Below are positions 4,132 to 55,834 of a stretch of DNA of 64,000 nucleotides, one piece after another (position 1 is the stretch's first letter; every line of letters begins with the position of its first letter). Under the pieces are notes generated by a model. It was not told the origin of the DNA. It saw only the letters and a list, made by a program, of their open reading frames with translations, and did not search any database. The position numbers and the translations under genes were made by a program. Origin of the DNA: Minisyncoccota bacterium (lineage in GTDB: Bacteria > Patescibacteriota > Minisyncoccia > Phycocordibacterales > JAGLOS01); assembly GCA_023137615.1 (NCBI GenBank), contig JAGLOS010000001.1, forward strand, positions 1,067-65,066. Direction: 5' to 3'.

Positions 4132-5466
4132 CTACAAATTTTGCTCTTGATGTGTGAGGTTGTGTACACATTTCTTGAACAAATCACCTTTTTCTTCAAA
4201 ATTTTTATACAAACTATAGCTCGGTGACGCCGTTGAAAGTAAGCTCATTTTACCTTTTGGTGTATTAGCCGTGCAATATTGCACGGCTTCTTCCATATTA
4301 TCAGTAGAAAGAACTTTTGGAGAATATTCTTTTTCAGTATTTATAAGTTCCCCAATCTTTTTTCCTGTGTCCGGAAGAAGGACAATGGTCGATACCGAAT
4401 ATTCTTTCAATTTTCGCACAAGTCCACTAAACTCATAGCCCCGATCCTCTCCACCCAAGATAATAGATCCAAGTTTTTCCTTAAAAACTTCAATACCCGC
4501 GATTGTTGATTCCGGTGTTGTTGAAATAGCATCATCATAAAAATGAACACCTTTGACATTATCAACATATTCCAATCGATGAGGCAGTCCATAAAATTGT
4601 GAGATCGATCTTTCAATAACATTATTCTCAACCCCTAATAAATGTGTCGCGGAAATAACAGCAAGAACATTATCTTTATTATGATCACCGGGTATTTTTA
4701 CTGCGCCAACGGGAAATATCTTATTTCCACCTTCATAAAACCATTTTTCGTCATACCACACATTATCTTGTTCACCATATATTATTTTTTTTGCTTTGGT
4801 TTCTAACTCTGTCAATTTTTCATATTGTTTGTTTACAATAAGAAGATCTTCTTCGGATTGACCGCGCGTAATATTTTTTTTTGCGTTGAAATAATTATCA
4901 AATCCTCCGTGGTAGGTAAGATGATCCGGGAATAAGCTTGTAATAATTGCGATATGCGGATGAATATGCGTGCCTTCAAGTTGATAGCTGGAAAGCTCAC
5001 AAACAAAAGTAGTATTTTTACACTCAACGTATTTGAGAGCGGGAACACCTATATTTCCGATAAGTTCTGTTTGCCTGCCATCCTCTTTGAGTACCTCAAA
5101 AAGCATGGATACAACCGTACTCTTGCCCTTAGAGCCGGTAACACCAACAACAGTATTAGACGAATCTATAGAATCAAAAAATATTTGAGTCGCTGATGTT
5201 ATTTTTTCAGCAAGTGGTTTAAGCTCGGGCGACATAGAGATCCCCGGTGTTTTTATAATAACGTCAAAATCTCCAAGACTATCTTGATAATTTTCCCCTT
5301 TTAAAAGGCTCACATTTTTATCTGAGCAAGATAAATTTTCATTCTGGTCTGCTATAGCAAAATGTTTATCCGGAAAATATTTTCTGAGCACACGAAGAGT
5401 TTCCACACCTTCCCTGCCAAACCCAAGTAAAACTATTTTTTTATTTCCAAGAGTGCTGATATTCAT
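4132..5466 (-). CDS. murD: UDP-N-acetylmuramoyl-L-alanine--glutamate ligase (MurD family)
   Basis: 444 aa. N-terminal Rossmann LLGFGREG and Mur ligase P-loop GVTGSKGKST, plus C-terminal Mur ligase domain. Confidence 0.85.
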   Translation of the reverse strand: MNISTLGNKKIVLLGFGREGVETLRVLRKYFPDKHFAIADQNENLSCSDKNVSLLKGENYQDSLGDFDVIIKTPGISMSPELKPLAEKITSATQIFFDSIDSSNTVVGVTGSKGKSTVVSMLFEVLKEDGRQTELIGNIGVPALKYVECKNTTFVCELSSYQLEGTHIHPHIAIITSLFPDHLTYHGGFDNYFNAKKNITRGQSEEDLLIVNKQYEKLTELETKAKKIIYGEQDNVWYDEKWFYEGGNKIFPVGAVKIPGDHNKDNVLAVISATHLLGVENNVIERSISQFYGLPHRLEYVDNVKGVHFYDDAISTTPESTIAGIEVFKEKLGSIILGGEDRGYEFSGLVRKLKEYSVSTIVLLPDTGKKIGELINTEKEYSPKVLSTDNMEEAVQYCTANTPKGKMSLLSTASPSYSLYKNFEEKGDLFKKCVHNLTHQEQNL

Positions 5467-7474: not shown

Positions 7475-9247
7475 TTAAATATTTATCGTAAAGTAAAAAG
7501 TACTTCCTTTCCCCTCTTGTGACGCAACACCGACAAACCCTCCGTGGGCCTCTATTACGCCTTTTACCACAACAAGTCCCAGTCCCAAGCTTGTTCTGCT
7601 TTCTCCTTTCCTTGTAACAATATTGTCTTTGTCAAATTTGGTAAACAACGCCCCAATTTTCGATCGTGGAATACCGACACCGGAATCAGTGATTCCAATA
7701 ATAACACAATCCTGTCTTTCTCGAAACGTCACATCCTCCTTTTCTTCTACAAACCACTCAACGCCGGCGGTTTTCGCTTCTCTACTGAGAATTTCTTCTT
7801 TTTTATGACGAAATATATCCACCGAAATAGTCCCGCCGAGTTCGGTATATTTTATTGCATTGGAAAGAAGGTTGTTTAATACCTGTTCGATCCGTATTGA
7901 GTCCATTTCAAGCTCGACCGGCACATTTTCCGAATAATTCATCTCCATTGTTATATTTCTGTCTTTTGCGGCAATGTCGAAGAAATGAAATCTCCCTTGT
8001 ATAACTTGCTTCAATTTAGTTACCCGTGTTGAAAGAATCAATTTTTCATTCTCAATGTTTGAAACATCCAAAAGATCATTTACCAATTCAAGCATTTGAG
8101 ATGACCCTTTGAATATCATTTTTATATATTCATCATATGTCTTCTTGTCTGTCCGTACTGTATCATCATGCATTACTTCACTCACTTTCTTAATACCATC
8201 AAGCGGTCCTCGAAGCTCATGTATCATAAGTGATGTAAATTCTTCCTTGAGCTTCTCTGCCTCTTTCTCCTTTGTCACGTCGTGCAGAACCACTACCCCA
8301 CCGAGGATCTGATCCTTCACAATATCTGCAAAACCTTTGACCGGAGACACGGAAAGCTGAAAAAAATTATCTTCCACTTTTACCTCAGGTGTAATAATGA
8401 TCTTATTCAAAGTAATACTTTCCTTGAGAGTTTCCCGTATATCAAAAGAGTCCCCTAGCCCATTAATAAGATCAAAAATATCAATACTGGAGTTATCTTT
8501 CAACCCAAGGTATCTCTTAGCGGCAGGATTTACCGCCATCACCTTATATTCACGATCAGTCATTACCACACCATCGGTCAAGCTCTCCACCACAGCACTA
8601 AGTTTTGCTTGTTCGGTCTTCACCACTTGCTCAAGTTTTGTAACCGCCTGTGATGCTTGTGCCACTATTTTGTAAAGGATCATAACATCCTGTTCTTTGT
8701 ATTGCTCCTTTCTTGTATGAGCCACTGTAAGTAATCCAACAACCCGCCCACCAATAACAAGTGGGATATTAAAAAAAGACTCGATCTTTTCCGGTGAACC
8801 ATCCAAGACAAGGGCTCCGGAGAGACTTTCTTTGATATCTTTTGTACGAACCTCCTTTTCAAGAAGAGCGGTAAGAGAATCTTCCATCTTTTTTTTAACT
8901 CCATCAACAAATTTTCGGCAAACAGACTCTTTTAGATCGATCTTAAAGGAAACCGGGTTATTTTCTTTTTGATCTACAAGCATGTATGACACCGTGGTAT
9001 ATTCGATGAATTGTCTGAGAGATCCTGTGATCATCTCGACCACCTTTTCGACATCAAGAGAATACCCCATTCCCTCACCCAATTTCTCAAGAACAGCAAG
9101 TTCGTACACCTTACGACGTACCTCGATCTCACAAGCATGTGCTCGTATACGAAACGACCTCTCTCTCCAACAGAGAACACAACCGGCTATCAGCACAATA
9201 ATTCCAATAATTCCAATAAGGGTATTTTCCATACACTCTAAAAACAC
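7475..9247 (-). CDS. sensor histidine kinase (TM-GAF-PAS-HisKA-HATPase)
   Basis: 590 aa. N-terminal TM helix, H-box HELRGPL, N/G boxes (LLSNAIKYT, GLGLVVVKGVIEAHGG). Adjacent to the response regulator. Confidence 0.85.
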   Translation of the reverse strand: MFLECMENTLIGIIGIIVLIAGCVLCWRERSFRIRAHACEIEVRRKVYELAVLEKLGEGMGYSLDVEKVVEMITGSLRQFIEYTTVSYMLVDQKENNPVSFKIDLKESVCRKFVDGVKKKMEDSLTALLEKEVRTKDIKESLSGALVLDGSPEKIESFFNIPLVIGGRVVGLLTVAHTRKEQYKEQDVMILYKIVAQASQAVTKLEQVVKTEQAKLSAVVESLTDGVVMTDREYKVMAVNPAAKRYLGLKDNSSIDIFDLINGLGDSFDIRETLKESITLNKIIITPEVKVEDNFFQLSVSPVKGFADIVKDQILGGVVVLHDVTKEKEAEKLKEEFTSLMIHELRGPLDGIKKVSEVMHDDTVRTDKKTYDEYIKMIFKGSSQMLELVNDLLDVSNIENEKLILSTRVTKLKQVIQGRFHFFDIAAKDRNITMEMNYSENVPVELEMDSIRIEQVLNNLLSNAIKYTELGGTISVDIFRHKKEEILSREAKTAGVEWFVEEKEDVTFRERQDCVIIGITDSGVGIPRSKIGALFTKFDKDNIVTRKGESRTSLGLGLVVVKGVIEAHGGFVGVASQEGKGSTFYFTINI

Positions 9248-17992: not shown

Positions 17993-18379
17993 CTACTTGC
18001 TTATCTTTCCGTCAAAATGCTCCTCCTGCTCATCTGATTTTGTGGGGTGTATCGTGCCATCTTTGTGCTCGGGCGGTGAATAGATACTATAGAGTTTTAG
18101 GTCCATATCTCCGGTGTTTATTACATTATGATCAGTACCTGCCGGAATCACAACCGCCCAATCATCTTCAGCGCTGTGTTCTTCCCCATCCAAGATCACT
18201 TTTGCTTTCCCTTTTTCAATACGAATGAATTGATCGAGTTCGTGTACCTCCATACCGATCTCATCGCCCGGCTTTATATTCATAAGTACCAATTGACTAT
18301 TTTTCGCAGTATAAAGAACACGACGATAATCTTCATTTTCTAATGTTGCTTTTTCAATGTTTGTTAGATATCCTTTCAT
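17993..18379 (-). CDS. cupin-domain protein
   Basis: 128 aa. Two cupin motifs with metal-binding His residues (EVHELDQF, AGTDHNVIN). Confidence 0.65.
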   Translation of the reverse strand: MKGYLTNIEKATLENEDYRRVLYTAKNSQLVLMNIKPGDEIGMEVHELDQFIRIEKGKAKVILDGEEHSAEDDWAVVIPAGTDHNVINTGDMDLKLYSIYSPPEHKDGTIHPTKSDEQEEHFDGKISK

Positions 18380-18398
18380 AATATTTTTAAATTATACT

Positions 18399-18574
18399 AA
18401 TAACAGGTATTAAACTCCAGAGCAAGCTCTGGACTCAATTTTGAGTTCGCTTCGCTCACACTGACCCGCGGCAAGCCGACGGGGTATTTACCTGATATTA
18501 GCTCCTCGGCTCGGGAATGTAAAAGTTACGCTTCGCTCCACTTTTACATTCCGCTCGCTCTACGTCGCTAATAA
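18399..18574 (+). repeat. MITE-like intergenic repeat, family R1, copy A
   Basis: 176 bp between divergent cupin and U32 genes. Termini are taataacaggtattaaactccagag ... cgctcgctctacgtcgctaataa. Contains internal inverted repeat gaatgtaaaagt/acttttacattc. An inverted, longer copy lies at 52081-52370. Confidence 0.7.
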
Positions 18575-18683: not shown

Positions 18684-19958
18684 ATGGTCAACAAACATCA
18701 CAATATAAAACATATGAAAAAACCTGAAATATTATCCCCCATACAAGACTTCACATCGCTCAGCGCCGCTATCGAGGCAGGAGCTGACGCAATATATTTT
18801 GGTGTACATGGATACAATATGCGCGTTACTGCAAAAAACTTCACAAAAGACGACATCGTCAAGATCACAACGATCACACATGATGCCGGAGTAAAAGCAT
18901 ACATGGCTCTAAATACGATCATCTACGAAGAAGAACTTGATAAAATGTATACAATATTACAGAGTGCATATAATGCAAATGTAGACGCGGTCATATGTTG
19001 GGACCCGGCAGTAATACAGGCGGCACGAAAGATCGGGCTTGAAGTACATTTAAGCACACAGGCAAGTGTTGCCAATTCACAAGCCGCATTATTTTTCAAA
19101 AACCTTGGAGTTGCTCGTATTGTACTCGCCCGAGAGTGCTCTCTGGAACAAATAAAAAAGATCAAAAAGGAAACGAATATCGAGATCGAAACTTTTATAC
19201 ATGGAGCCATGTGTGTATCAATATCCGGCAGATGTTTTTTGTCACAATTCACAACAGGTCAATCAGCAAACCGCGGAGCGTGCCGTCAGCCATGCCGGCG
19301 GAACTATATAATAAAAGACACCGAGGGAGAATTTGAATATGAGGTTGGTCCAAACTACGTTTTGAGCCCCAAAGACCTCTGCACTCTCCCCTTTTTTGAA
19401 AAACTTGTTTTCTCGGGTATCGACTGCTTCAAGATCGAAGGAAGAAACAAAAGCCCGGAATACGTACACGACACAACGGCTGTCTATCGAGAGTTATTGG
19501 ATCTTATATGGAACAACAAAGACCACCCGGCAGACAAAGATTTTAAAAAAGAACTCGCTGAGCTTAAAAAGAAGCTACTGCCAAAGCTGAAAAGAGTATT
19601 CAATCGAGAGTTCTCGAGTGGCTTTTATCTGGGAAAACCAATGGACGAATGGACGGACGCTTCCGGAAACGCTGGGACTGAGAAAAAAATATACATCGGC
19701 AAGGTTACAAAATTTTATGGGAAACTAAGTGTCGCAGAGATCATATTACATGCAAATGAAACGCTTGCCGTAGGAGATGAGATACTAATACAAGGAAATG
19801 CTACGGGGAGTGTCCGTACAAAGATCGAATCTATGGAAATAGATCATAAAAAGATCAAGCAAGCGACACAAAGTGATATTGTTGCAATAAAAGTTGATAC
19901 GAAAGTCCGCACCAATGACACTGTTGGACGCATTGATCGGGTTGATCATACTGAATAG
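18684..19958 (+). CDS. peptidase U32 family protein (RlhA/TrhP-like RNA hydroxylation factor family)
   Basis: 424 aa. U32 signature region and Cys cluster ISGRCFLS...ACRQPCRR. TIM-barrel N-terminal domain. Confidence 0.8.
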   Translation: MVNKHHNIKHMKKPEILSPIQDFTSLSAAIEAGADAIYFGVHGYNMRVTAKNFTKDDIVKITTITHDAGVKAYMALNTIIYEEELDKMYTILQSAYNANVDAVICWDPAVIQAARKIGLEVHLSTQASVANSQAALFFKNLGVARIVLARECSLEQIKKIKKETNIEIETFIHGAMCVSISGRCFLSQFTTGQSANRGACRQPCRRNYIIKDTEGEFEYEVGPNYVLSPKDLCTLPFFEKLVFSGIDCFKIEGRNKSPEYVHDTTAVYRELLDLIWNNKDHPADKDFKKELAELKKKLLPKLKRVFNREFSSGFYLGKPMDEWTDASGNAGTEKKIYIGKVTKFYGKLSVAEIILHANETLAVGDEILIQGNATGSVRTKIESMEIDHKKIKQATQSDIVAIKVDTKVRTNDTVGRIDRVDHTE

Positions 19959-20369: not shown

Positions 20370-21893
20370 ATGAAAAAGGTAATAATAATATTTTTATTTA
20401 TAATAATAATTTTTGCAGCCTACGCATTTTACGAAAACGAGCGGCAGAATAGTAAATATTTTATTTACACAAATGATTATAAGCCGAGTCTTAGTAGTAA
20501 AACCGCTGAATACGACAAGCTTGATTGCTCAAACGATGGAACCAAAGATTGCATAATACTAGCTGAAGAGATCAAAAATGTTTCCGAAAAAATTGCAAAT
20601 TTATTAACAAAAGAAGATAATTTTTATGATCAAATTAAAAATTATGAATATGAAGAAATTAACAGTCAAGATGCCAACCTGTTAAAAAAAGAAAGCAATA
20701 GTAATTTTGTTGATAGTACCTTAGAAAAATATAAAGAAATGGGTTTTGATATAGAATACTTCAAACATGGCAAAATTGAAGCTATTTTAGATGACGGGGG
20801 TATATTATTTACCGACAATACTGATGAAGATCTATATTTTTATGACACCGGATACATATTCAAGGCACCATGTGATAATGATGTAAAAAAGGCAAAAGCG
20901 GTTTTGAATAAAGATGGTTTTATAGATGGGATATACCAAATTGATAATAATTGTGAAACTTATTATTACATTGGTCGTAAAAAATTTTACGATAGAATAA
21001 TAAAATCATATACGGGAAGGGAAAAACTTTTAGGATATGATTATGCAAACAGATTAACACTTAATGACGATAAAACAGCTTTTGCTTTTTTTTATTCATA
21101 CCCCCATGAAGCAAGTTTATTAAGCGCAAAAGACAGAAGCCGTAGTAATTTTTTAGCATATCAAGATATTTCAGAGATAAGAACAACCATGAATATTCTT
21201 GATACCTTAACGGATAAAGGTCTGGAAGTATCAGAAAAAATTCTTGAAATAAATGAAAAATTTGAAAAAAGTATCGTTACAAACACTTTAAACACTCTTT
21301 TACCAAAAAAAATAACAAATAGTGGAATTGAGCCCGAAGAAATGTACGATATTGTCATAGGAAATGAAACTAATATTTATAACAAACTAATGGGAAAGAA
21401 AACTCTCGATGATAGCGAGAATAGCGAGGAGGAAGAGATGAATACTAATAGTTATACTTTTGAAACAATAACTATGTATGACAAAGATGGCAAAAGATAC
21501 CCGACCGGCAGTGCAATACCGGAGATCTATAAAATGTGCTGGATTGGAAATGATCTATATTTTAGAGCTGACATTAACCCTAGGACCAAAGTGGTTGCAG
21601 ATATCTATACGATCAATTTTGAAAAAGTAGATTCTCGTAAAGAACCAAAATTAATACTAACAAATGACCCCGATGACCGTTCAAAATATTATTATCTTAC
21701 CGGGTGTTCTTCAAAGTTCGATCGTTTATATGTTGAATCATCCGGGGCTGAAAAATTTGGATATCTTGATCTAGACACCAAGGATATAACTTATCTTTTT
21801 GATACTAATGATATTACAGATTTACGAATCAATAATGAACTCATGAGCTTCGTTGATGAGTTTGGAAATAACTATATATTGGAATTAAATTAA
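20370..21893 (+). CDS. hypothetical secreted/membrane-anchored protein, N/K/D/Y-rich
   Basis: 507 aa. N-terminal hydrophobic anchor. Very AT-rich codon usage unlike neighbours. No recognisable domain. Confidence 0.5.
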   Translation: MKKVIIIFLFIIIIFAAYAFYENERQNSKYFIYTNDYKPSLSSKTAEYDKLDCSNDGTKDCIILAEEIKNVSEKIANLLTKEDNFYDQIKNYEYEEINSQDANLLKKESNSNFVDSTLEKYKEMGFDIEYFKHGKIEAILDDGGILFTDNTDEDLYFYDTGYIFKAPCDNDVKKAKAVLNKDGFIDGIYQIDNNCETYYYIGRKKFYDRIIKSYTGREKLLGYDYANRLTLNDDKTAFAFFYSYPHEASLLSAKDRSRSNFLAYQDISEIRTTMNILDTLTDKGLEVSEKILEINEKFEKSIVTNTLNTLLPKKITNSGIEPEEMYDIVIGNETNIYNKLMGKKTLDDSENSEEEEMNTNSYTFETITMYDKDGKRYPTGSAIPEIYKMCWIGNDLYFRADINPRTKVVADIYTINFEKVDSRKEPKLILTNDPDDRSKYYYLTGCSSKFDRLYVESSGAEKFGYLDLDTKDITYLFDTNDITDLRINNELMSFVDEFGNNYILELN

Positions 21894-22108: not shown

Positions 22109-22723
22109 ATGAAAAACAATTCTTCTAAAAAATGCGTTCTGATTGCAGTTATTATCGTTCTCGGGATCATCGCTATACTCTTTTATTTATTTAACCCACC
22201 AACCAAAAATTATTTTCTTAATTCCGGTAATACTCATTCAGTCGTTTCAGACGAATATCACAAGACTGGAACTGTAGACGCTTGGGTTTATCATTTTGGA
22301 GAATGGACTCCGAATAAAGCAGAAACCTATGGTTCTTTAATAAAATTTAATATTCTGGAATTAGAGAATGAAAAAACAGCGATGCTCCATCTTAATATCC
22401 AGGCTTTTGATAATAAAACGATCAAGGGTCAGCGTTGTTCTGAATCTAAAAAATTTAATGTTAAGAAAATTCTTTCTTCTTGGGATTACAAAACCGTAGG
22501 TTATTCTGGGATAGAGAATTTGCAAAACAACGGTGAGGTAATTGCTAATTTTACCGTTGACCCGGACGACAGTTTCGTAGAAGTGGAACTGCCGGTTAGC
22601 GAGCTCGCTGCTAATGGTTTTACCATTAGCCAAGCAGACGGAGTTTTATGTAGAGTTTCTTTTTATTCCCATTCAGACGATAATAATTCTGAAAAACATC
22701 CTTATTTTATTGTGAATAATTAG
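22109..22723 (+). CDS. hypothetical secreted protein
   Basis: 204 aa. N-terminal TM/signal anchor. Followed by the same aaggtcRgaccttgctRgg hairpin motif as the previous gene. Confidence 0.5.
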   Translation: MKNNSSKKCVLIAVIIVLGIIAILFYLFNPPTKNYFLNSGNTHSVVSDEYHKTGTVDAWVYHFGEWTPNKAETYGSLIKFNILELENEKTAMLHLNIQAFDNKTIKGQRCSESKKFNVKKILSSWDYKTVGYSGIENLQNNGEVIANFTVDPDDSFVEVELPVSELAANGFTISQADGVLCRVSFYSHSDDNNSEKHPYFIVNN

Positions 22724-24580: not shown

Positions 24581-24678
24581 GTGCACTGCTCGCTCCACTT
24601 CGTTACGCTCCCAGCACTGTCCTTTGACAAAGCGACATAAAAACCGATGCTTTCGCATCGGTTTTTATGTCGGTCAAA
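24581..24678 (+). repeat. tRNA-flanking repeat, family R3, copy 1
   Basis: gtgcactgctcgctccacttcgttacgctcccagcac ... aaaaccgatgctttcgcatcggttttt. A related copy lies at 30490-30576. Both abut a minus-oriented tRNA 3' end. Confidence 0.6.
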
Positions 24679-26410: not shown

Positions 26411-26567
26411 AGGATAACAAGATTGACAAGAAAGTAGTTACAAAAAAATACGCTTGACATATTTTGTGCTGAGCTAGTAGGGAGTTAGTCGCGAACACTT
26501 AGTTTTTTGAATATTTCATTTCGTTTCACTCATAAAATATTCTTAAAAGGTCTTGCGGAATGGGTCC

Positions 26568-26692
26568 CAGCCCCTTCTCCTCCACTTCGTTACAGAGCGG
26601 GGACCCGCTGCTCCGTCTTTCAACTCCCGCTCTGGGCTACATAATACAGCAACCCCGAAGCGCTGCTTCAGGGTTGGTATTTTGTGCTGAGT
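26568..26692 (+). repeat. 121-bp direct repeat unit B, copy 1
   Basis: Identical to the 26776-26895 copy. Contains an inverted copy of the tRNA-Leu 3' end (tcaactcccgctctgggc) and the ctccacttcgttac motif shared with family R3. Confidence 0.75.
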
Positions 26693-26775
26693 TGGTAGGG
26701 AGCTGGTCACGAATCACTAAGCTTTTTGTTCGTCTTTCAGACTCCAAAAAACTAAGTGTTCGCGACCCCGACTCG

Positions 26776-26895
26776 CAGCCCCTTCTCCTCCACTTCGTTA
26801 CAGAGCGGGGACCCGCTGCTCCGTCTTTCAACTCCCGCTCTGGGCTACATAATACAGCAACCCCGAAGCGCTGCTTCAGGGTTGGTATTTTGTGC
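26776..26895 (+). repeat. 121-bp direct repeat unit B, copy 2
   Basis: 100 percent identical to copy 1. Runs directly into the 3' end of tRNA-Leu. Confidence 0.75.
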
Positions 26896-28811: not shown

Positions 28812-29525
28812 TTATCCCCCTTTTCTCCTTTTACGCTCCTTATACTTTTCAACGATCTCCATAAATTCTTTTTTTGTAAATGAAGGCCAGCATACTTTCG
28901 GAAAAAAGAGCTCACTATAAACCGCCTGCCAAGACAAAAAGTTAGAAAGCCTTTTTTCGCCGCTCGTACGGATAATAAGATCTGGGTCAGGCATGTCTTT
29001 TGTCCACAGATATTTAGAAAAATCTTGTTCTTTCATGGATTCAATTTCTTCGGGTGTTTTTTCACGAGAGATCTTCTTTACCGCGGAGAGTATCTCTGCT
29101 CGACCACCATATGAGACGGCAACATATAATGTGCATAAACCTTCTTCTGTTTCTTTTTCAAGCTTTTTGATCCCTTTTTGCATATCAGAAGCAAGGCGTT
29201 CTATTTGTCCAACAAATTTTATTCTCATATTTTCTTCTTTAAGCCAACTCATTTCTTTAAAAACAAGATTTCGAAAAAGATCCATCAGATAATCTATTTC
29301 TTTTTCGCTTCTATTCCAATTTTCCGTAGAAAAAGCGTAAACAATAATGTGATGAACGTCTATTTTTTTACACCACAAAGAGATCTCCTTGAGTTTTCTG
29401 TACCCTTTTCTGTGTCCTTCAAGAGTTGGGAGTCCGCGCTTTTTAGCCCAACGCCTATTACCATCCATGATTATTCCCACACACTGAGGAATATTTGCTT
29501 TCTCCGGCTGATCATTTTTTACCAT
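28812..29525 (-). CDS. uppS: undecaprenyl-diphosphate synthase (cis-prenyltransferase)
   Basis: 237 aa. HIGIIMDGNRRWAKKRGL and ENWNR, RTSGE motifs. Confidence 0.9.
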   Translation of the reverse strand: MVKNDQPEKANIPQCVGIIMDGNRRWAKKRGLPTLEGHRKGYRKLKEISLWCKKIDVHHIIVYAFSTENWNRSEKEIDYLMDLFRNLVFKEMSWLKEENMRIKFVGQIERLASDMQKGIKKLEKETEEGLCTLYVAVSYGGRAEILSAVKKISREKTPEEIESMKEQDFSKYLWTKDMPDPDLIIRTSGEKRLSNFLSWQAVYSELFFPKVCWPSFTKKEFMEIVEKYKERKRRKGG

Positions 29526-29568
29526 AAACTATTTTGAGTTACTATAAATAAAAGCACTTCGTCTTATG

Positions 29569-29644
29569 TTATCTCCTCGGCTCGGAAGTAAAAAGTTTCG
29601 TTTTACTTCACTTTTTACTTCTCTCGCTCTACGTCGCTAATAAT
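29569..29644 (+). repeat. family R1 partial copy C
   Basis: ctcctcggctcggaagtaaaaagtttcgttttacttcactttttacttctctcgctctacgtcgctaataa. Overlaps the last codons and stop of acyP. Confidence 0.65.
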
Positions 29645-29914
29645 ATTAAACTCTGAAAACTCGCCCGTTGCTTCTTCCCAAAAACTTTCCACATTATCAA
29701 CACGAGAGAGTAAGGGTCCTTTTTTTAGAAGAACTAAAAGCTGTTTCAATTTTTCTTCTTCACCTTCAGCTATCACTTCTACTGAACCGTCCTTTATATT
29801 TTGCACCCTACCAACCAGACCAAGCCGACGAGCTTTTCTCGTCGTAAAATCACGAAACATAACCAACTGCACTCGACCCGCTATCCGGCATTTTAATCTC
29901 TTTGTCATTGCCAT
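29615..29914 (-). CDS. acyP: acylphosphatase
   Basis: 99 aa. VQLVMFRDFT (VxGxVQGVxFR-type) and acylphosphatase fold. The C-terminal codons lie inside repeat R1-C. Confidence 0.8.
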   Translation of the reverse strand: MAMTKRLKCRIAGRVQLVMFRDFTTRKARRLGLVGRVQNIKDGSVEVIAEGEEEKLKQLLVLLKKGPLLSRVDNVESFWEEATGEFSEFNIISDVEREK

Positions 29915-30088: not shown

Positions 30089-30162
30089 GGGCGATTAGCT
30101 CAGTTGGCTAGAGCAACCCGTTTACACCGGGTAGGTCGGGGGTTCAAATCCCTCATCGCCCA
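30089..30162 (+). tRNA. tRNA-Val(TAC)
   Basis: 74-nt cloverleaf. Anticodon loop TTTACAC. T-arm GGGGGTTCAAATCCCTC. Confidence 0.85.
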
Positions 30163-30164
30163 CA

Positions 30165-30207
30165 CGCAAAATTAAAATCACCCTTTTGGGGTGATTTTAA
30201 TTTTGCG
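30165..30207 (+). terminator. terminator hairpin after tRNA-Val
   Basis: cgcaaaattaaaatcaccccttttggggtgattttaattttgcg is a perfect long inverted repeat. Confidence 0.6.
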
Positions 30208-30399
30208 CTGTGACGATAGGAAGTGAACTGCTTCACTTCCGTGGGGATTTGAACGGCGGAGTATGTTGGTAAACACCGAGCAAAGCTTGGCGTTTACCAA
30301 CAGCGAGCCGCGTCCAGCGATACTTATTAGATTTCGATTCGTCTTTGACGAAAAAGAAATATAATTAGTAATCGTGGGACGAATCCCTCATCGCCCACA
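30208..30399 (+). repeat. tRNA-linked repeat family R2, copy 1 (ends in a duplicate of the tRNA-Val 3' end)
   Basis: Shares ggatttgaacggcggag, gcgagccgcgtccagcgaYacttaYtagatttcga and aaatataRttagtRatYgtgggac with 55470-55695. Its last 18 bp (aatccctcatcgcccaca) are a direct repeat of the tRNA-Val 3' end 220 bp upstream. Confidence 0.7.
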
Positions 30400-30489
30400 G
30401 CCGCCAAAACAGCACTTATCAGTGCTGTTTTGTTTTGCAACTTAGTAACAGCAACGAAAAAAAGATGCTTCGCAATCTATTTAAGTATA

Positions 30490-30576
30490 AGTGCACTGCT
30501 CACTCCTCTTCGTCCCATTCCCAGCACGACTTACGTAACAACAAAAAAACCGATGCTTTCGCATCGGTTTTTTGTT
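30490..30576 (+). repeat. family R3 copy 2, abutting tRNA-Arg 3' end
   Basis: gtgcactgctcactcctcttcgtcccattcccagcac ... aaaaaccgatgctttcgcatcggttttt. Confidence 0.6.
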
Positions 30577-39162: not shown

Positions 39163-39957
39163 ATGAAAAATAAAAAAACATTTTCTTTACTAGCTGTTGT
39201 TTCGCTTGGAACTATCGCAACTGTAGCATTTGCAACAGGAGGATATATTCCTCAAAATCCGGTAATAATTACCATAGGAGGAGGGCATACAAACGGGATT
39301 TCTCCAGCAAACACTCCCTTTTCATCTCCAGATCATTCCGCAGCTCTTTATGGTTCTTCTTACGAAGCCCTTGGAGATACATTGGAACAAGTATATGGAG
39401 AAGTTGCTGTAGTAAATACTGCTCAAGCAGCTTCAATGTCTTATCCTGTATTTATTCCAGATGAATCCGGAGCTCTACAACCTACTGGCTGGAAAGGTGC
39501 TCAGTGGCAATTTGAAGAAGGACTTTCACAAAGTGGTTGGTCAGACGGTCTTCATGTTACAGGTCTCTATGTTGCTTTTTTTGGTGATTGCGGTATGTCA
39601 CCATGCACTCCAGAAGCACTTGTACAATACCACTCAACAATGACCGGTGTTGTACAACAAGCACAAGCTATGGGTATTTCAGTTTTGGTGGAAGAATATC
39701 CAGATTATGAAGATATTGATTTTAATCTTCTTAGTGAATTTGCTTTTGGTGGACACGGATATATTGTTCCGGAAGAAGACTACAACCAACTTAAAAATAG
39801 CTGGAAAAATCTATGGGATAATATGGGGGTGCCAACCGTTCATGTTTGGGAAGATTTTGAAACTATAGACGGTTTTCATCCTACACACAAATCAAGCTTG
39901 AAGGGCGCTCGACGTGTTGAGAATGCTTTTAAGAAAAACTATAGCATAGGGTTGTAG
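39163..39957 (+). CDS. hypothetical secreted protein
   Basis: 264 aa. Signal peptide (LLAVVSLGTIATVAFA). No confident domain; GGGHTNG is only vaguely hydrolase-like. Confidence 0.5.
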   Translation: MKNKKTFSLLAVVSLGTIATVAFATGGYIPQNPVIITIGGGHTNGISPANTPFSSPDHSAALYGSSYEALGDTLEQVYGEVAVVNTAQAASMSYPVFIPDESGALQPTGWKGAQWQFEEGLSQSGWSDGLHVTGLYVAFFGDCGMSPCTPEALVQYHSTMTGVVQQAQAMGISVLVEEYPDYEDIDFNLLSEFAFGGHGYIVPEEDYNQLKNSWKNLWDNMGVPTVHVWEDFETIDGFHPTHKSSLKGARRVENAFKKNYSIGL

Positions 39958-52054: not shown

Positions 52055-52080
52055 CAAAAAACCGCCTTTCGGCGGTTTTT

Positions 52081-52370
52081 TTATTAGCGACGTAGAGCGA
52101 GCGGAATGTAAAAGTGGAGCGAAACGCAACTTTTACATTTCCAAGCCGAGGATCTAATATCGGATAAACCCGTCTGCCGGCAGGCGGGTACTCCGTCGGC
52201 TTGCTGCGGGAAAATGTGAGCAAAACGAATTCAAAATTGAGTCCAGAGTGAGAAGCGAATACTTGGAGCTTCGCAAGACTCATTGAGAGCTTTTATGAGC
52301 AAAGCGAAATAAAAGATCCAATGAGTGGACAGAACCTGTAAGGTTTGCTCTGGGGTTTAATACCTGTTAT
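52081..52370 (-). repeat. MITE-like repeat family R1, copy B (inverted, extended)
   Basis: Reverse complement of copy A, with the same termini (ttattagcgacgtagagcgagcgg ... tttaatacctgttatt). Carries two internal insertions of about 25 and about 100 bp relative to copy A. Confidence 0.7.
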
Positions 52371-52387
52371 TTTTCAGTTTCTAAAAA

Positions 52388-55285: not shown

Positions 55286-55469
55286 AGCAAACTGCTTTGC
55301 TTGCGACGCTTGTCCGAGGCGGAACCATAATTTTTCTGTAATGAAATGGAAGAAAAATAGGTGAGCCGGGGTCGCGAGCACTTAGCAGATTTGAATCTGA
55401 GTTTACGAAGATGCGACATTGTTTTCTTATGAGTGAAACGAATTAGAAAACAAGAAGTGCCCTTGTGGT

Positions 55470-55695
55470 GAAAAATATGCTTAGTGACTTGTGACGACAA
55501 TGGATCTGAACGGCGGAGCATGGGTCCCTGCCTGAAACGAAGTGTAAGGTAGGGCTGCGAGCCGCGTCCAGCGACACTTACTAGATTTCGAGTGAAGCGG
55601 AGAAATATAGTTAGTGATTGTGGGACAAGTCCTGTGTTTATCTTTAAATTCGAGCCTTGCGAGAACAAAAAATATGCTTAGTGACTTGTGACGAC
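55470..55695 (+). repeat. tRNA-linked repeat family R2, copy 2, flanked by 27-bp direct repeats
   Basis: The core shares three blocks with 30208-30399. It is flanked by aaaaatatgcttagtgacttgtgacgac at 55472-55498 and again at 55668-55694. Confidence 0.7.
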
Positions 55696-55834
55696 TGTAA
55701 ATCAGTAAACCGGAGGTTTTCCTTGTTTTCCCAACAGAACTTGTGACAAAGTTCTATAAATATTTCTGTCTCTTATAAATTTAAACGTTTTTGCAAAACC
55801 AACACAAGCTATTATTTTCTGTTATCATATACCC

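What the first reader, a model, noticed from the sequence alone, without database searches (positions are those of the whole stretch)
18399..18574. MITE-like element family R1 in three copies; one copy donates the C-terminus and stop codon of acyP
Copy A (176 bp, plus) and copy B (290 bp, inverted, 52081-52370) share both termini and an internal 12-bp inverted repeat (gaatgtaaaagt/acttttacattc). Copy B carries two internal insertions, one itself palindromic (cccgtctgccggcaggcgggtac). A third, 76-bp copy at 29569-29644 overlaps the last codons (..EREK-stop) of the acylphosphatase gene. All three end with cgctcgctctacgtcgctaataa. Such elements with terminal conservation and hairpin potential are typical of miniature inverted-repeat or REP-like elements and can act as terminators.
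Basis: seen in the sequence. Interest (0 to 1): 0.5.

Follow-up and report, generated by a model that had tools for sequence, protein, structure and literature searches.

The report
Hairpin insertion element shared across CPR bacteria
The three repeats are copies of a small gene-less insertion element that lands at the sequence AATAA, and the same element, with a 19-base block unchanged, occurs in about 77 genome assemblies from many lineages of the ultra-small "candidate phyla radiation" bacteria, where I found no prior description of it.

Summary
There are three copies: A 18399-18574 (+), B 52081-52371 (-), and C, which is longer than reported, 29547-29643 (+). Each is bounded by AATAA on both sides.

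All three are absent from the same sites in relatives with 80-91% identical flanking proteins. Copies B and C are clean insertions. Copy C split the last codons of acyP: the native tail YSNSK-stop still lies just beyond the element, and the gene now ends in element-encoded SDVEREK-stop.

The element is not a classical MITE, because its outer ends are not inverted repeats. Nothing supports the idea that it acts as a terminator.

It has two hairpin domains. Two conserved C/T-rich blocks (CTCCTCGGCTCGG and CTCGCTCTACGTCGCT) flank a hairpin whose 12 pairs all covary. An internal segment (CCTATATTAGC) is complementary to both ends.

No copy carries a gene. There was no Rfam match, no viral hit and no paper.

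Best reading: a non-autonomous, structure-guided, site-specific mobile element moved in trans by an unknown enzyme.

The parts
18399..18574 (+). Copy A, complete element of 176 nt. It consists of AATAA 18399-18403, body 18404-18569 and AATAA 18570-18574, and lies between the divergent cupin gene (17993-18379, -) and the peptidase U32 gene (18684-19958, +).
   Evidence: The relative with a 91% identical cupin (L133/L134) has a 111-nt intergenic region without the element, against 304 nt here.
18404..18494 (+). Copy A domain 1. The closing stem is CAGGTA (18404-18409) paired with TACCTG (18489-18494), and it encloses three small hairpins.
   Evidence: Fold (-59.8 kcal/mol, z = -5.0). The closing stem covaries across the family (AGGTT/AACCT, AGTCC/GGACT, CAGGTA/TACCTG).
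18495..18574 (+). Copy A domain 2. It comprises stem TATTAGC/GCTAATA, the 5' block CTCCTCGGCTCGG, a 12-bp hairpin (18515-18526 paired with 18540-18551, loop 18527-18539), the 3' block CGCTCGCTCTACGTCGCT and AATAA.
   Evidence: 81.2 bits.
29547..29643 (+). Copy C, a minimal complete element. It consists of AATAA 29547-29551, body 29552-29638 (mini domain 1 plus domain 2) and AATAA 29639-29643, and is inserted in the last codons of acyP, antisense to it.
   Evidence: (76.3 bits). The empty site in L124 reads ...ATTGTT|TATGACAAGTCAAAATAGTTTATG.
29615..29914 (-). acyP (acylphosphatase, 99 aa). The last residues SDVEREK and the stop codon are encoded by the reverse strand of copy C.
   Evidence: Homologues of 82-100% identity end ..FNIISDVEREK; homologues of 72-80% identity end ..FNI[IV]Y[DN]xSK.
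29529..29546 (-). Displaced native 3' end of acyP (TAT AGT AAC TCA AAA TAG = YSNSK-stop). It is now cut off from the gene by the insertion and is followed after 3 nt by the uppS start codon (29523-29525).
   Evidence: Read. It has the same layout as the relative L124, where the acyP stop is 3 nt before the uppS ATG.
52081..52371 (-). Copy B, 291 nt. TTATT 52081-52085 and 52367-52371 are the two AATAA pentamers on the minus strand. It is inserted between the rpsT stop (52388) and the shared terminator (52056-52081).
   Evidence: (69.8 bits). The relative L128 (rpsT 85% identical) has ...GATAA|AAAACCGCCGAGAGGTGGTTTTTT with no element.
52249..52344 (-). A roughly 96-nt extra module in domain 1 of copy B, inserted in the loop of the hairpin TCCAGAG..CTCTGGA of the A-type. 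The same module occurs in copies of a related genome (L007, L061).
   Evidence: 85-87% identity over 127 nt.
52169..52188 (.). A 20-nt GC-rich mini-palindrome (cccgtctgccggcaggcggg) nested in copy B.
   Evidence: The related palindrome CCTGCCGGCAGG sits inside elements of other lineages (L041, L102, L117, L120).

Best explanation
R1 is a family of small (about 80-300 bp), gene-less insertion elements found across Patescibacteria/CPR.

Shown. Each copy has the layout AATAA | ATAWAGGnn-[variable hairpins]-nnCCTATAT | TAGC-CTCCTCGGCTCGG-[variable covarying hairpin]-nCTCGCTCTACGTCGCT | AATAA. It is found as a clean insertion at an AATAA(A) site, so the pentamer flanks it on both sides. Neighbouring copies in tandem share one pentamer. 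It has no terminal inverted repeats and no gene. It inserts in either orientation relative to genes.

Inferred. An enzyme supplied in trans recognises the two invariant C/T-rich blocks of domain 2. The internal segment CCTATATTAGC pairs with both ends, ATAWAGG at the 5' end and GCTAATA at the 3' end. In a folded single strand this sets the two cut sites side by side on one helix. That geometry suits a single-strand, structure-guided cut-and-join, as in IS200/IS605 HUH transposases or folded attC/CTX-phage recombination sites. The join would occur within the AATAA core.

The effects on host genes are by-products: the new acyP tail, the longer rpsT 3' UTR, and the enlarged cupin/U32 promoter region.
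For: Three of three window copies are missing at the orthologous site of relatives. B and C are exact insertions bounded by the pentamer.

A related genome carries 95-96% identical copies at unrelated loci. In 5 of about 125 hits a contig ends in the element (L022, L034, L062, L073, L123), as expected for a multi-copy repeat.

The 5' block was not part of the search pattern, yet it is at least 90% conserved.

All 12 hairpin pairs show compensatory changes. 92% of cells are paired, and the covariation score is 0.347, against 0.114 for shuffles and at most 0.131 for slid partners. The closing stem of domain 1 also covaries.

All 90 5' blocks found have a 3' block within 150 nt, and no domain 1 occurs alone, so this is one short unit.

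The right pentamer is AATAA in 109 of 125 copies. The base before the left ATA is A in 27 of 34. Tandem copies share a single AATA(A/T)A.

G-T and A-C mismatches in the hairpin are equally common (22 against 27), so neither strand is favoured as an RNA. Orientation relative to genes is near random: 35, 27, 21 and 16.

The forward strand lies on the C-rich strand in 68 of 101 copies (p = 0.0013), the kind of bias single-strand transposons show.
Against: No enzyme has been identified, and no autonomous parent was seen.

The fixed pentamer cannot distinguish a target duplication from a shared recombination core, or from insertion next to a target with no duplication.

The GC-skew bias is modest and is confounded with gene orientation.

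Copy C is shared by a species whose acyP is only 81.5% identical at the DNA level, yet domain 2 differs only by one compensatory pair (66 of 68 bases). That is more conservation than a decaying selfish insert should show, and it points to a host-level function or to gene conversion between copies.

The empty site for copy A is in a diverged stretch, so it shows absence of the element but not a base-exact insertion.
Confidence: 0.62

Rival explanations
1. A host-useful DNA signal that happens to spread by insertion. The two invariant blocks and the hairpin would be the binding site of a conserved CPR protein, for example one involved in chromosome organisation, recombination or repair, or DNA uptake. 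Copies would then be kept by selection rather than only by transposition.
For: The invariant blocks are shared across candidate phyla. The orthologous copy C is 97% conserved while the adjacent coding sequence is 81.5% identical. Independence from orientation fits a DNA-level role.
Against: The element is absent from the same sites in close relatives. It disrupts a gene end. Density is low, at 3 copies per 64 kb. No partner protein is known.
Confidence: 0.15
2. A structured non-coding RNA gene or cis-acting RNA module, such as a transcript stabiliser, terminator or ribozyme. Its conserved loops would be functional RNA, and it would be dispersed by duplication or retro-insertion.
For: There is strong covariation together with conserved unpaired blocks, the usual signature of a structured RNA. 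The folds are much more stable than shuffled sequence (z = -5.0, -4.8 and -3.7). The reverse strand of A and B carries a TTTACA-17-TAATAT promoter-like site.
Against: There was no Rfam match at E up to 10. Orientation relative to neighbouring genes is near random. There is no G-U against A-C asymmetry between strands. No T-run follows the conserved hairpin. Copies in the window would be transcribed in opposite senses, B sense in the rpsT 3' UTR and C antisense inside an operon.
Confidence: 0.1
3. A REP/REPIN-type or IS200/IS605-derived palindromic element moved by a Y1 (HUH) transposase or RAYT that is encoded elsewhere in these genomes.
For: The element has no inverted-repeat termini, has hairpins near both ends and has a fixed AT-rich pentamer at the boundary. 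Y1_Tnp genes lie in 4 of 117 loci that carry the element. There is a strand bias relative to GC skew.
Against: Those Y1 genes are 1-4 kb from the element. At least two of them (L054, L071) are flanked by their own, unrelated inverted repeat AAAGGGGTCAGGnnCC. There is none in the 64-kb window. Hairpin sequences vary freely between copies of one genome, unlike REPs.
Confidence: 0.1
4. A classical MITE, that is, a deletion derivative of a DDE-transposase insertion sequence with terminal inverted repeats and a target-site duplication.
For: The element is small, gene-less, multi-copy, bounded by a direct repeat, and polymorphic in presence.
Against: The outer termini are not inverted repeats. The inverted repeats present each close one of the two internal domains. 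The flanking repeat always has the same sequence. No longer relative with a gene occurs among 90 copies.
Confidence: 0.03

Closest known systems
bcr1-bcr18 repeats of the Bacillus cereus group
   Same: They are gene-less interspersed elements of 100-400 bp with predicted secondary structure. [quoted passage not shown]
   Different: They share no sequence with R1 and use a different pentamer. The bcr elements are confined to one species group, whereas R1 keeps invariant blocks across many candidate phyla. No internal segment complementary to both ends is reported for bcr in the texts I read.
IS200/IS605-family transposition and its gene-less derivatives (PATEs), and REP/REPIN-RAYT systems
   Same: These have no terminal inverted repeats and have hairpins near both ends. 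Cleavage sites are defined by pairing with internal guide bases. They insert next to a fixed tetra- or pentanucleotide and show a strand bias (from my own knowledge of IS608 and ISDra2 work, not re-read here).
   Different: No cognate Y1 gene with these ends was found. One internal segment pairs with both ends, rather than a separate guide at each end. Hairpin sequences vary freely. The 5-nt flank is identical on both sides.
Folded single-strand recombination sites: integron attC and the CTX-phage attP(+)
   Same: Two inverted partial sites in one strand pair to build the duplex in which strand exchange occurs. The stems vary while structure and a short core are conserved. Neighbouring units share the core (from my own knowledge).
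   Different: R1 has no RYYYAAC/GTTRRRY core, no cassette ORF, no integrase gene nearby and no array next to an attI site.
Rickettsia palindromic elements and modular repeats such as BOX, ERIC and Correia
   Same: They are small, hairpin-forming, modular repeats that can land in coding sequence and become part of the protein (from my own knowledge).
   Different: Those families are genus- or species-specific, and several have inverted-repeat ends. R1 changed only the last residues of acyP rather than adding an in-frame internal segment.

Membership tests
MITE (miniature inverted-repeat transposable element) | Small and non-coding, with many copies | tested here: met
   Length is 78-270 nt (median 145) in 34 copies whose 5' end could be located; copy B is 291 nt. 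No ORF lies inside. There are 3 copies in 64 kb and several per genome elsewhere.
MITE (miniature inverted-repeat transposable element) | Terminal inverted repeats at the two outer ends | tested here: not met
   The 5' end AATAAAGGTTCC and the reverse complement of the 3' end, TTATTAGCGACG, do not match. The inverted repeats present close each internal domain separately.
MITE (miniature inverted-repeat transposable element) | Target-site duplication | tested here: inconclusive
   AATAA is on both sides, and one copy is present in the inferred empty site. Because the sequence is always the same, a shared recombination core or insertion next to a target fits equally well.
MITE (miniature inverted-repeat transposable element) | An autonomous IS with the same ends | tested here: not met
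   All 90 5' blocks have their 3' block within 150 nt. No gene family is shared by the loci beyond housekeeping superfamilies. This covers only the 8-kb loci fetched.
MITE (miniature inverted-repeat transposable element) | Presence/absence differences between related genomes | tested here: met
   Sites A, B and C are empty in relatives with 91%, 85% and 80% identical flanking proteins.
REP / REPIN with RAYT | A short palindrome with a conserved 5' GTAG-type head, and the same repeats flanking a RAYT gene | tested here: not met
   The Y1_Tnp genes found in L054 and L071 are flanked by a different repeat, AAAGGGGTCAGGnnCC; the flanks of those in L083 and L061 were not read. There is no such gene in the window.
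IS200/IS605-derived element (PATE) | No inverted-repeat termini, and hairpins near both ends | tested here: met
IS200/IS605-derived element (PATE) | Cognate Y1 transposase acting on these ends | not testable with these tools
   This needs genome-wide co-occurrence analysis or biochemistry. The only finding here is the weak lead of 4 of 117 loci.
IS200/IS605-derived element (PATE) | Orientation bias relative to replication | tested here: inconclusive
   68 of 101 copies have the forward strand on the C-rich strand (p = 0.0013). However, skew and gene direction are linked, and no replication origin is known in these loci.
Integron attC site | R''/R' core RYYYAAC...GTTRRRY next to cassette ORFs and intI | tested here: not met
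   The core sequences are absent from the consensus. The flanking genes are ordinary housekeeping genes.
Intrinsic terminator | A GC-rich hairpin followed by a T-run | tested here: not met
   The conserved hairpin is A/T-rich in most copies. It is followed by CTCGCTCTACG on the forward strand and by CCGAGCCGAGG on the reverse strand. The scan flags only an inner hairpin of copy A and the separate rpsT terminator.
Any Rfam 15 RNA family | A covariance-model match | tested here: not met
   Only tRNAs pass at gathering score in the window. The best hit over copy A is 14 bits at E = 5.

The most novel reading that the evidence does not exclude
R1 may be the substrate of a recombination or transposition system that is still unrecognised and is common to much of the CPR. 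In this reading a folded single strand uses one internal guide segment to align both element ends and exchange strands within an AATAA core. Copies would additionally be kept by selection as a genome-wide DNA signal. That would make it a new mechanistic class of bacterial mobile DNA rather than another MITE.
Probability: 0.2. Interest if true: 0.85.

Novelty: new variant of a known kind. Interest (0 to 1): 0.62.

Why it matters
CPR/Patescibacteria are a large share of bacterial diversity. They have tiny genomes in which few mobile or repeated elements have been described.

An element with invariant 13-21-nt blocks shared across candidate phyla implies a conserved recognising enzyme or function that nobody has named. 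It gives a simple sequence handle (CTCGCTCTACGTCGCTAAT) for finding that enzyme or function.

The element also has practical effects. It rewrites gene ends, as in acyP. It adds structured sequence to UTRs and promoter regions. It appears to break metagenome assemblies. If its site-specific insertion is understood, it could serve as a marker for CPR contigs or as a genetic tool.

Tried and rejected
Rfam gave nothing, at gathering score over the whole window and at E up to 10 over copy A.

Eight literature searches, including the literal sequences, found nothing on this element in CPR. The search on bcr1 found the analogue.

A viral-contig scan for the 19-mer gave 0 hits.

I looked for an autonomous parent. 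No long version exists in 117 loci. Copies that seemed to lack the 5' block are degenerate, or are interrupted by nested mini-palindromes.

I clustered 1195 ORFs from the loci to look for a gene associated with the element. The top clusters are AAA+ ATPase, GTPase and ABC ATPase superfamilies, not orthologues.

The Y1_Tnp lead: I first misread minus-strand coordinates and thought one gene abutted an element. After correction with tblastn, the genes are 1-4 kb away, and the two whose flanks I read carry their own repeats.

The promoter idea: the reverse strand has a sigma-70-like site, but genes to the left point away from the element in 51 cases and toward it in 48.

GC skew inside the window shows no switch, so it could not be used to test the orientations of A, B and C.

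The TIGR arrays described in CPR were considered and dismissed, because R1 copies are dispersed single units and not arrays of short repeats.

A resemblance of GGTATTTACCTGATA to loop B of the hairpin ribozyme, and to Rep nick sites such as TAATATTAC, was noted from memory only. No model supports it.

Full report
**The observation.** The three stretches were read directly and aligned. The 21-mer CTCGCTCTACGTCGCTAATAA is exact in all three, where shuffles give none. A second block, CTCCTCGGCTCGGRA, is also present in all three, with 0.04 expected. A and B match over 95 nt (91%), 60 nt (87%) and 27 nt (96%) as inverted repeats. B differs from A by a module of about 96 nt (52249-52344), inserted in the loop of an A hairpin, and by a 20-nt GC-rich palindrome (52169-52188). 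A covariance model built later finds only these three copies in the window, at 81, 76 and 70 bits; the next hit is 16 bits. The one real error is that copy C is longer than reported.

**Context and organism.** The exact acyP, S20 and cupin proteins occur in MAGs labelled Candidatus Pacebacteria (GCA_030634645.1 and others). The window is therefore from a CPR/Patescibacteria genome.
- Copy A lies between the divergently transcribed cupin and peptidase U32 genes.
- Copy B lies between the convergent rpsT and HAD_SAK_2 genes, just inside the rpsT terminator.
- Copy C lies between acyP and uppS, which are on the same strand, and is antisense to them.

**The acyP claim.** The ORF 29615-29914 (-) ends ...EFNIISDVEREK-stop, and its Pfam acylphosphatase match covers residues 8-91. 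Homologues that are 82-100% identical share that tail. Those at 72-80% identity end ...FNI[IV]Y[DN]xSK.

In the window the native tail is still present immediately beyond the element. The reverse complement of 29529-29546 reads TAT AGT AAC TCA AAA TAG (YSNSK-stop), followed after 3 nt by the uppS ATG. The relative L124 has exactly this layout without the element (...ATT GTT TAT GAC AAG TCA AAA TAG TTT ATG).

Copy C is therefore a clean 92-nt insertion: an 87-nt body plus one extra AATAA, at the TTATT that encodes Ile-Ile. It runs from 29547 to 29643, and its 5' part is a miniature domain 1.

**The other two sites.** A relative with 85% identical S20 (L128) reads stop-TTTTTGAAGATAAGATAA|AAAACCGCCGAGAGGTGGTTTTTT. 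The window reads stop-TTTTTAGAAACTGAAAAATAA[element B]AAAAACCGCCGAAAGGCGGTTTTTT. That is again an exact insertion at (A/G)ATAA, here into the A-tract of the terminator.

Relatives with a 91% identical cupin (L133, L134) have a 111-nt cupin-U32 spacer without the element, against 304 nt in the window. That spacer is diverged, so it shows absence but not a base-exact junction.

A related genome (CAYPRS01) carries copies 95-96% identical to A at loci that share no flanking sequence with the window.

**The family.** By my count of accession prefixes these come from about 77 assemblies. Their labels include:
- Yonath-, Wolfe-, Vogel-, Kaiser-, Campbell-, Nomura-, Lloyd-, Taylor- and Azambacteria;
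- Doudna-, Komeili-, Buchanan- and Falkowbacteria;
- Shapirobacteria, Paceibacterota and Minisyncoccia.

Many are labelled "uncultured Saccharibacteria", and a few carry labels I do not trust. No viral contig has the 19-mer.

Extracting all copies gives this consensus:

AATAA|ATAWAGGnn-[one to several variable hairpins, often followed by GGTATT]-nnCCTATAT-TAGC-CTCCTCGGCTCGG-[variable hairpin]-nCTCGCTCTACGTCGCT|AATAA

The 5' block was not in the search pattern and is at least 90% conserved. Its most common distance to the 3' block is 44 nt.

**Structure.**
- *Domain 2 hairpin.* It changes sequence freely, for example GAAATGAAAAAG/CTTTTTCATTTC, GCTCGGCCAT/ATGGCCGGAC and GGTCAGCC/GGCTGACT. All 12 pairs have compensatory changes. 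92% of cells are paired, and the covariation score is 0.347, against 0.114 in shuffles and at most 0.131 with slid partners.
- *Within the window.* The A/B stem GAATGTAAAAGT/ACTTTTACATTC and the C stem GAAGTAAAAAGT/ACTTTTTACTTC differ in a compensated way.
- *Domain 1 closing stem.* It also covaries (AGGTT/AACCT, AGTCC/GGACT, CAGGTA/TACCTG).
- *Domain 2 closing stem.* TATTAGC/GCTAATA is conserved, but it could not be tested for covariation because its 3' arm was in the search pattern.
- *Stability.* Single-strand folds are far more stable than shuffled sequence (z = -5.0, -4.8 and -3.7).
- *Internal guide segment.* The middle segment CCTATATTAGC is complementary to both the 5' end (ATAWAGG) and the 3' end (GCTAATA). 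Its reverse complement, GCTAATATAGG, is almost the sequence made by joining the 3' end to the 5' end through one AATAA (GCTAATAAAGG). Tandem copies in L062, L122, L088 and L075 have exactly such shared junctions.
- *One unit.* Domain 1 never occurs without domain 2, and every 5' block has its 3' block within 150 nt. This is a single short unit with no gene.

**What it is not.**
- *Not a strict MITE.* The outer termini are not inverted repeats, the flanking repeat always has the same sequence, and no longer relative exists in the loci.
- *Not a known RNA.* There was no Rfam match.
- *Probably not a strand-specific RNA.* Orientation relative to neighbouring genes is near random (35, 27, 21 and 16 for the four arrangements, using crude ORF calls). 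G-T and A-C mismatches in the hairpin are equally frequent (22 against 27).
- *Not an intrinsic terminator.* No T-run follows the conserved hairpin, and copy C sits upstream of uppS within an operon.

A sigma-70-like TTTACA-17-TAATAT lies on the reverse strand of A and B, and its -10 element falls in the conserved GCTAATATAGG. The gene-orientation counts give no sign that this is used.

**Hints on mechanism.** These are inferences.
- The right pentamer is AATAA in 109 of 125 copies, and the next base is A in 94. The base before the left ATA is A in 27 of 34. The flanks therefore look like a shared core AATAA(A).
- 18 of 123 copies have a perfect GC-containing hairpin within about 15 nt after the right end, against 5 of 262 control AATAA sites. 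Insertion into the A-tract before terminators, as in copy B, seems common. The control includes coding sites, so this comparison is generous.
- The forward strand lies on the locally C-rich strand in 68 of 101 copies (p = 0.0013).
- Taken with the internal segment that aligns both ends, this fits a single-strand, structure-guided reaction. That is how IS200/IS605 transposases and folded attC or CTX-phage sites work (my own knowledge).
- Y1_Tnp (IS200-like/RAYT) genes occur in 4 of 117 loci. They are 1-4 kb from the element, and the two whose flanks I read have their own unrelated flanking repeat. This is a weak lead only.

**An observation that the selfish-element reading does not fully explain.** Copy C is shared with a species from another study (L127). 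Its acyP coding sequence is 81.5% identical (216 of 265 bases), yet domain 2 is 66 of 68 identical, and the two changes form one compensatory pair. Either the blocks are under selection in place, or copies are homogenised by gene conversion. I therefore keep a host-function rival at a real probability.

**Comparison with known elements.** The nearest described analogues are the bcr repeats of the Bacillus cereus group. These are 100-400 bp, structured and gene-less. [quoted passage not shown] R1 shares that behaviour. It differs in sequence, in the pentamer, in the internal segment complementary to both ends, and above all in being conserved across many candidate phyla rather than one species group.

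I found no paper and no Rfam family for it. Sequences printed only in figures cannot be searched, so prior description cannot be excluded.

**Verdict.** The best-supported reading is a non-autonomous, site-specific, hairpin-guided mobile element family spread through the CPR. The enzyme is unknown, and a possible host role is unresolved.

Noticed in passing
window 30164-30400; 55340-55715; 26460-26895; 24581-24666 and 30491-30572: This is a second, unrelated repeat family tied to tRNA gene ends. After tRNA-Val, a 218-nt segment is followed by a second copy of the tRNA 3' end (30382-30400 against 30143-30163), like an att duplication without an integrase. Homologous pieces follow tRNA-Lys (30303-30337 against 55557-55591, 94%). 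Two 99% identical 123-nt repeats spaced 208 nt apart abut tRNA-Leu. A shared segment plus terminator sits next to tRNA-His and tRNA-Arg.
   Followed up: partly
window 52169-52188; L041 7275-7286; L102 7037-7048; L117 4252-4263; L120 1003-1014; L127 414-425: GC-rich mini-palindromes (CCTGCCGGCAGG, and also TCCGCCAGAGGCGGA) are nested at different positions inside R1 copies of distant lineages, and occur once outside an element. They look like a further layer of tiny insertions into the hairpin element.
   Followed up: partly
L054 1883-2554; L071 704-1378; L083 3792-4472; L061 2759-3420: IS200-like/RAYT-like Y1_Tnp genes (Pfam E about 1e-17 for the two scanned, L054 and L071) occur in CPR genomes. 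The L054 and L071 genes are bracketed by their own inverted repeat AAAGGGGTCAGGnnCC / GGnnCCTGACCCCTTT. The L061 copy is split over two frames.
   Followed up: partly
L062 1-370; L122 1-170; L088 about 5250-5300; L075 about 7590-7620: These are head-to-tail arrays of R1 copies that share a single AATA(A/T)A at each junction. The period is about 160 nt in a Vogelbacteria contig and about 85 nt in L122.
   Followed up: partly
L022, L034, L062, L073, L123 (contig ends): Several contigs of different MAGs begin or end inside the element. Three contigs of one MAG (JAVHQE01) carry the same hairpin, and two of them begin in the element. This suggests the repeat breaks short-read assemblies of CPR genomes.
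   Followed up: no
window 18495-18523 (-) and 52132-52160 (+): A sigma-70-like TTTACA-17-TAATAT lies on the reverse strand of copies A and B. In A it points at the cupin gene (start 18379). In B it would give a transcript antisense to rpsT.
   Followed up: partly
window 20370-21893, 22109-22723, 39163-39957 and other ORFs: Several sizeable ORFs, including one of 507 aa, have no Pfam match at E up to 0.01.
   Followed up: no
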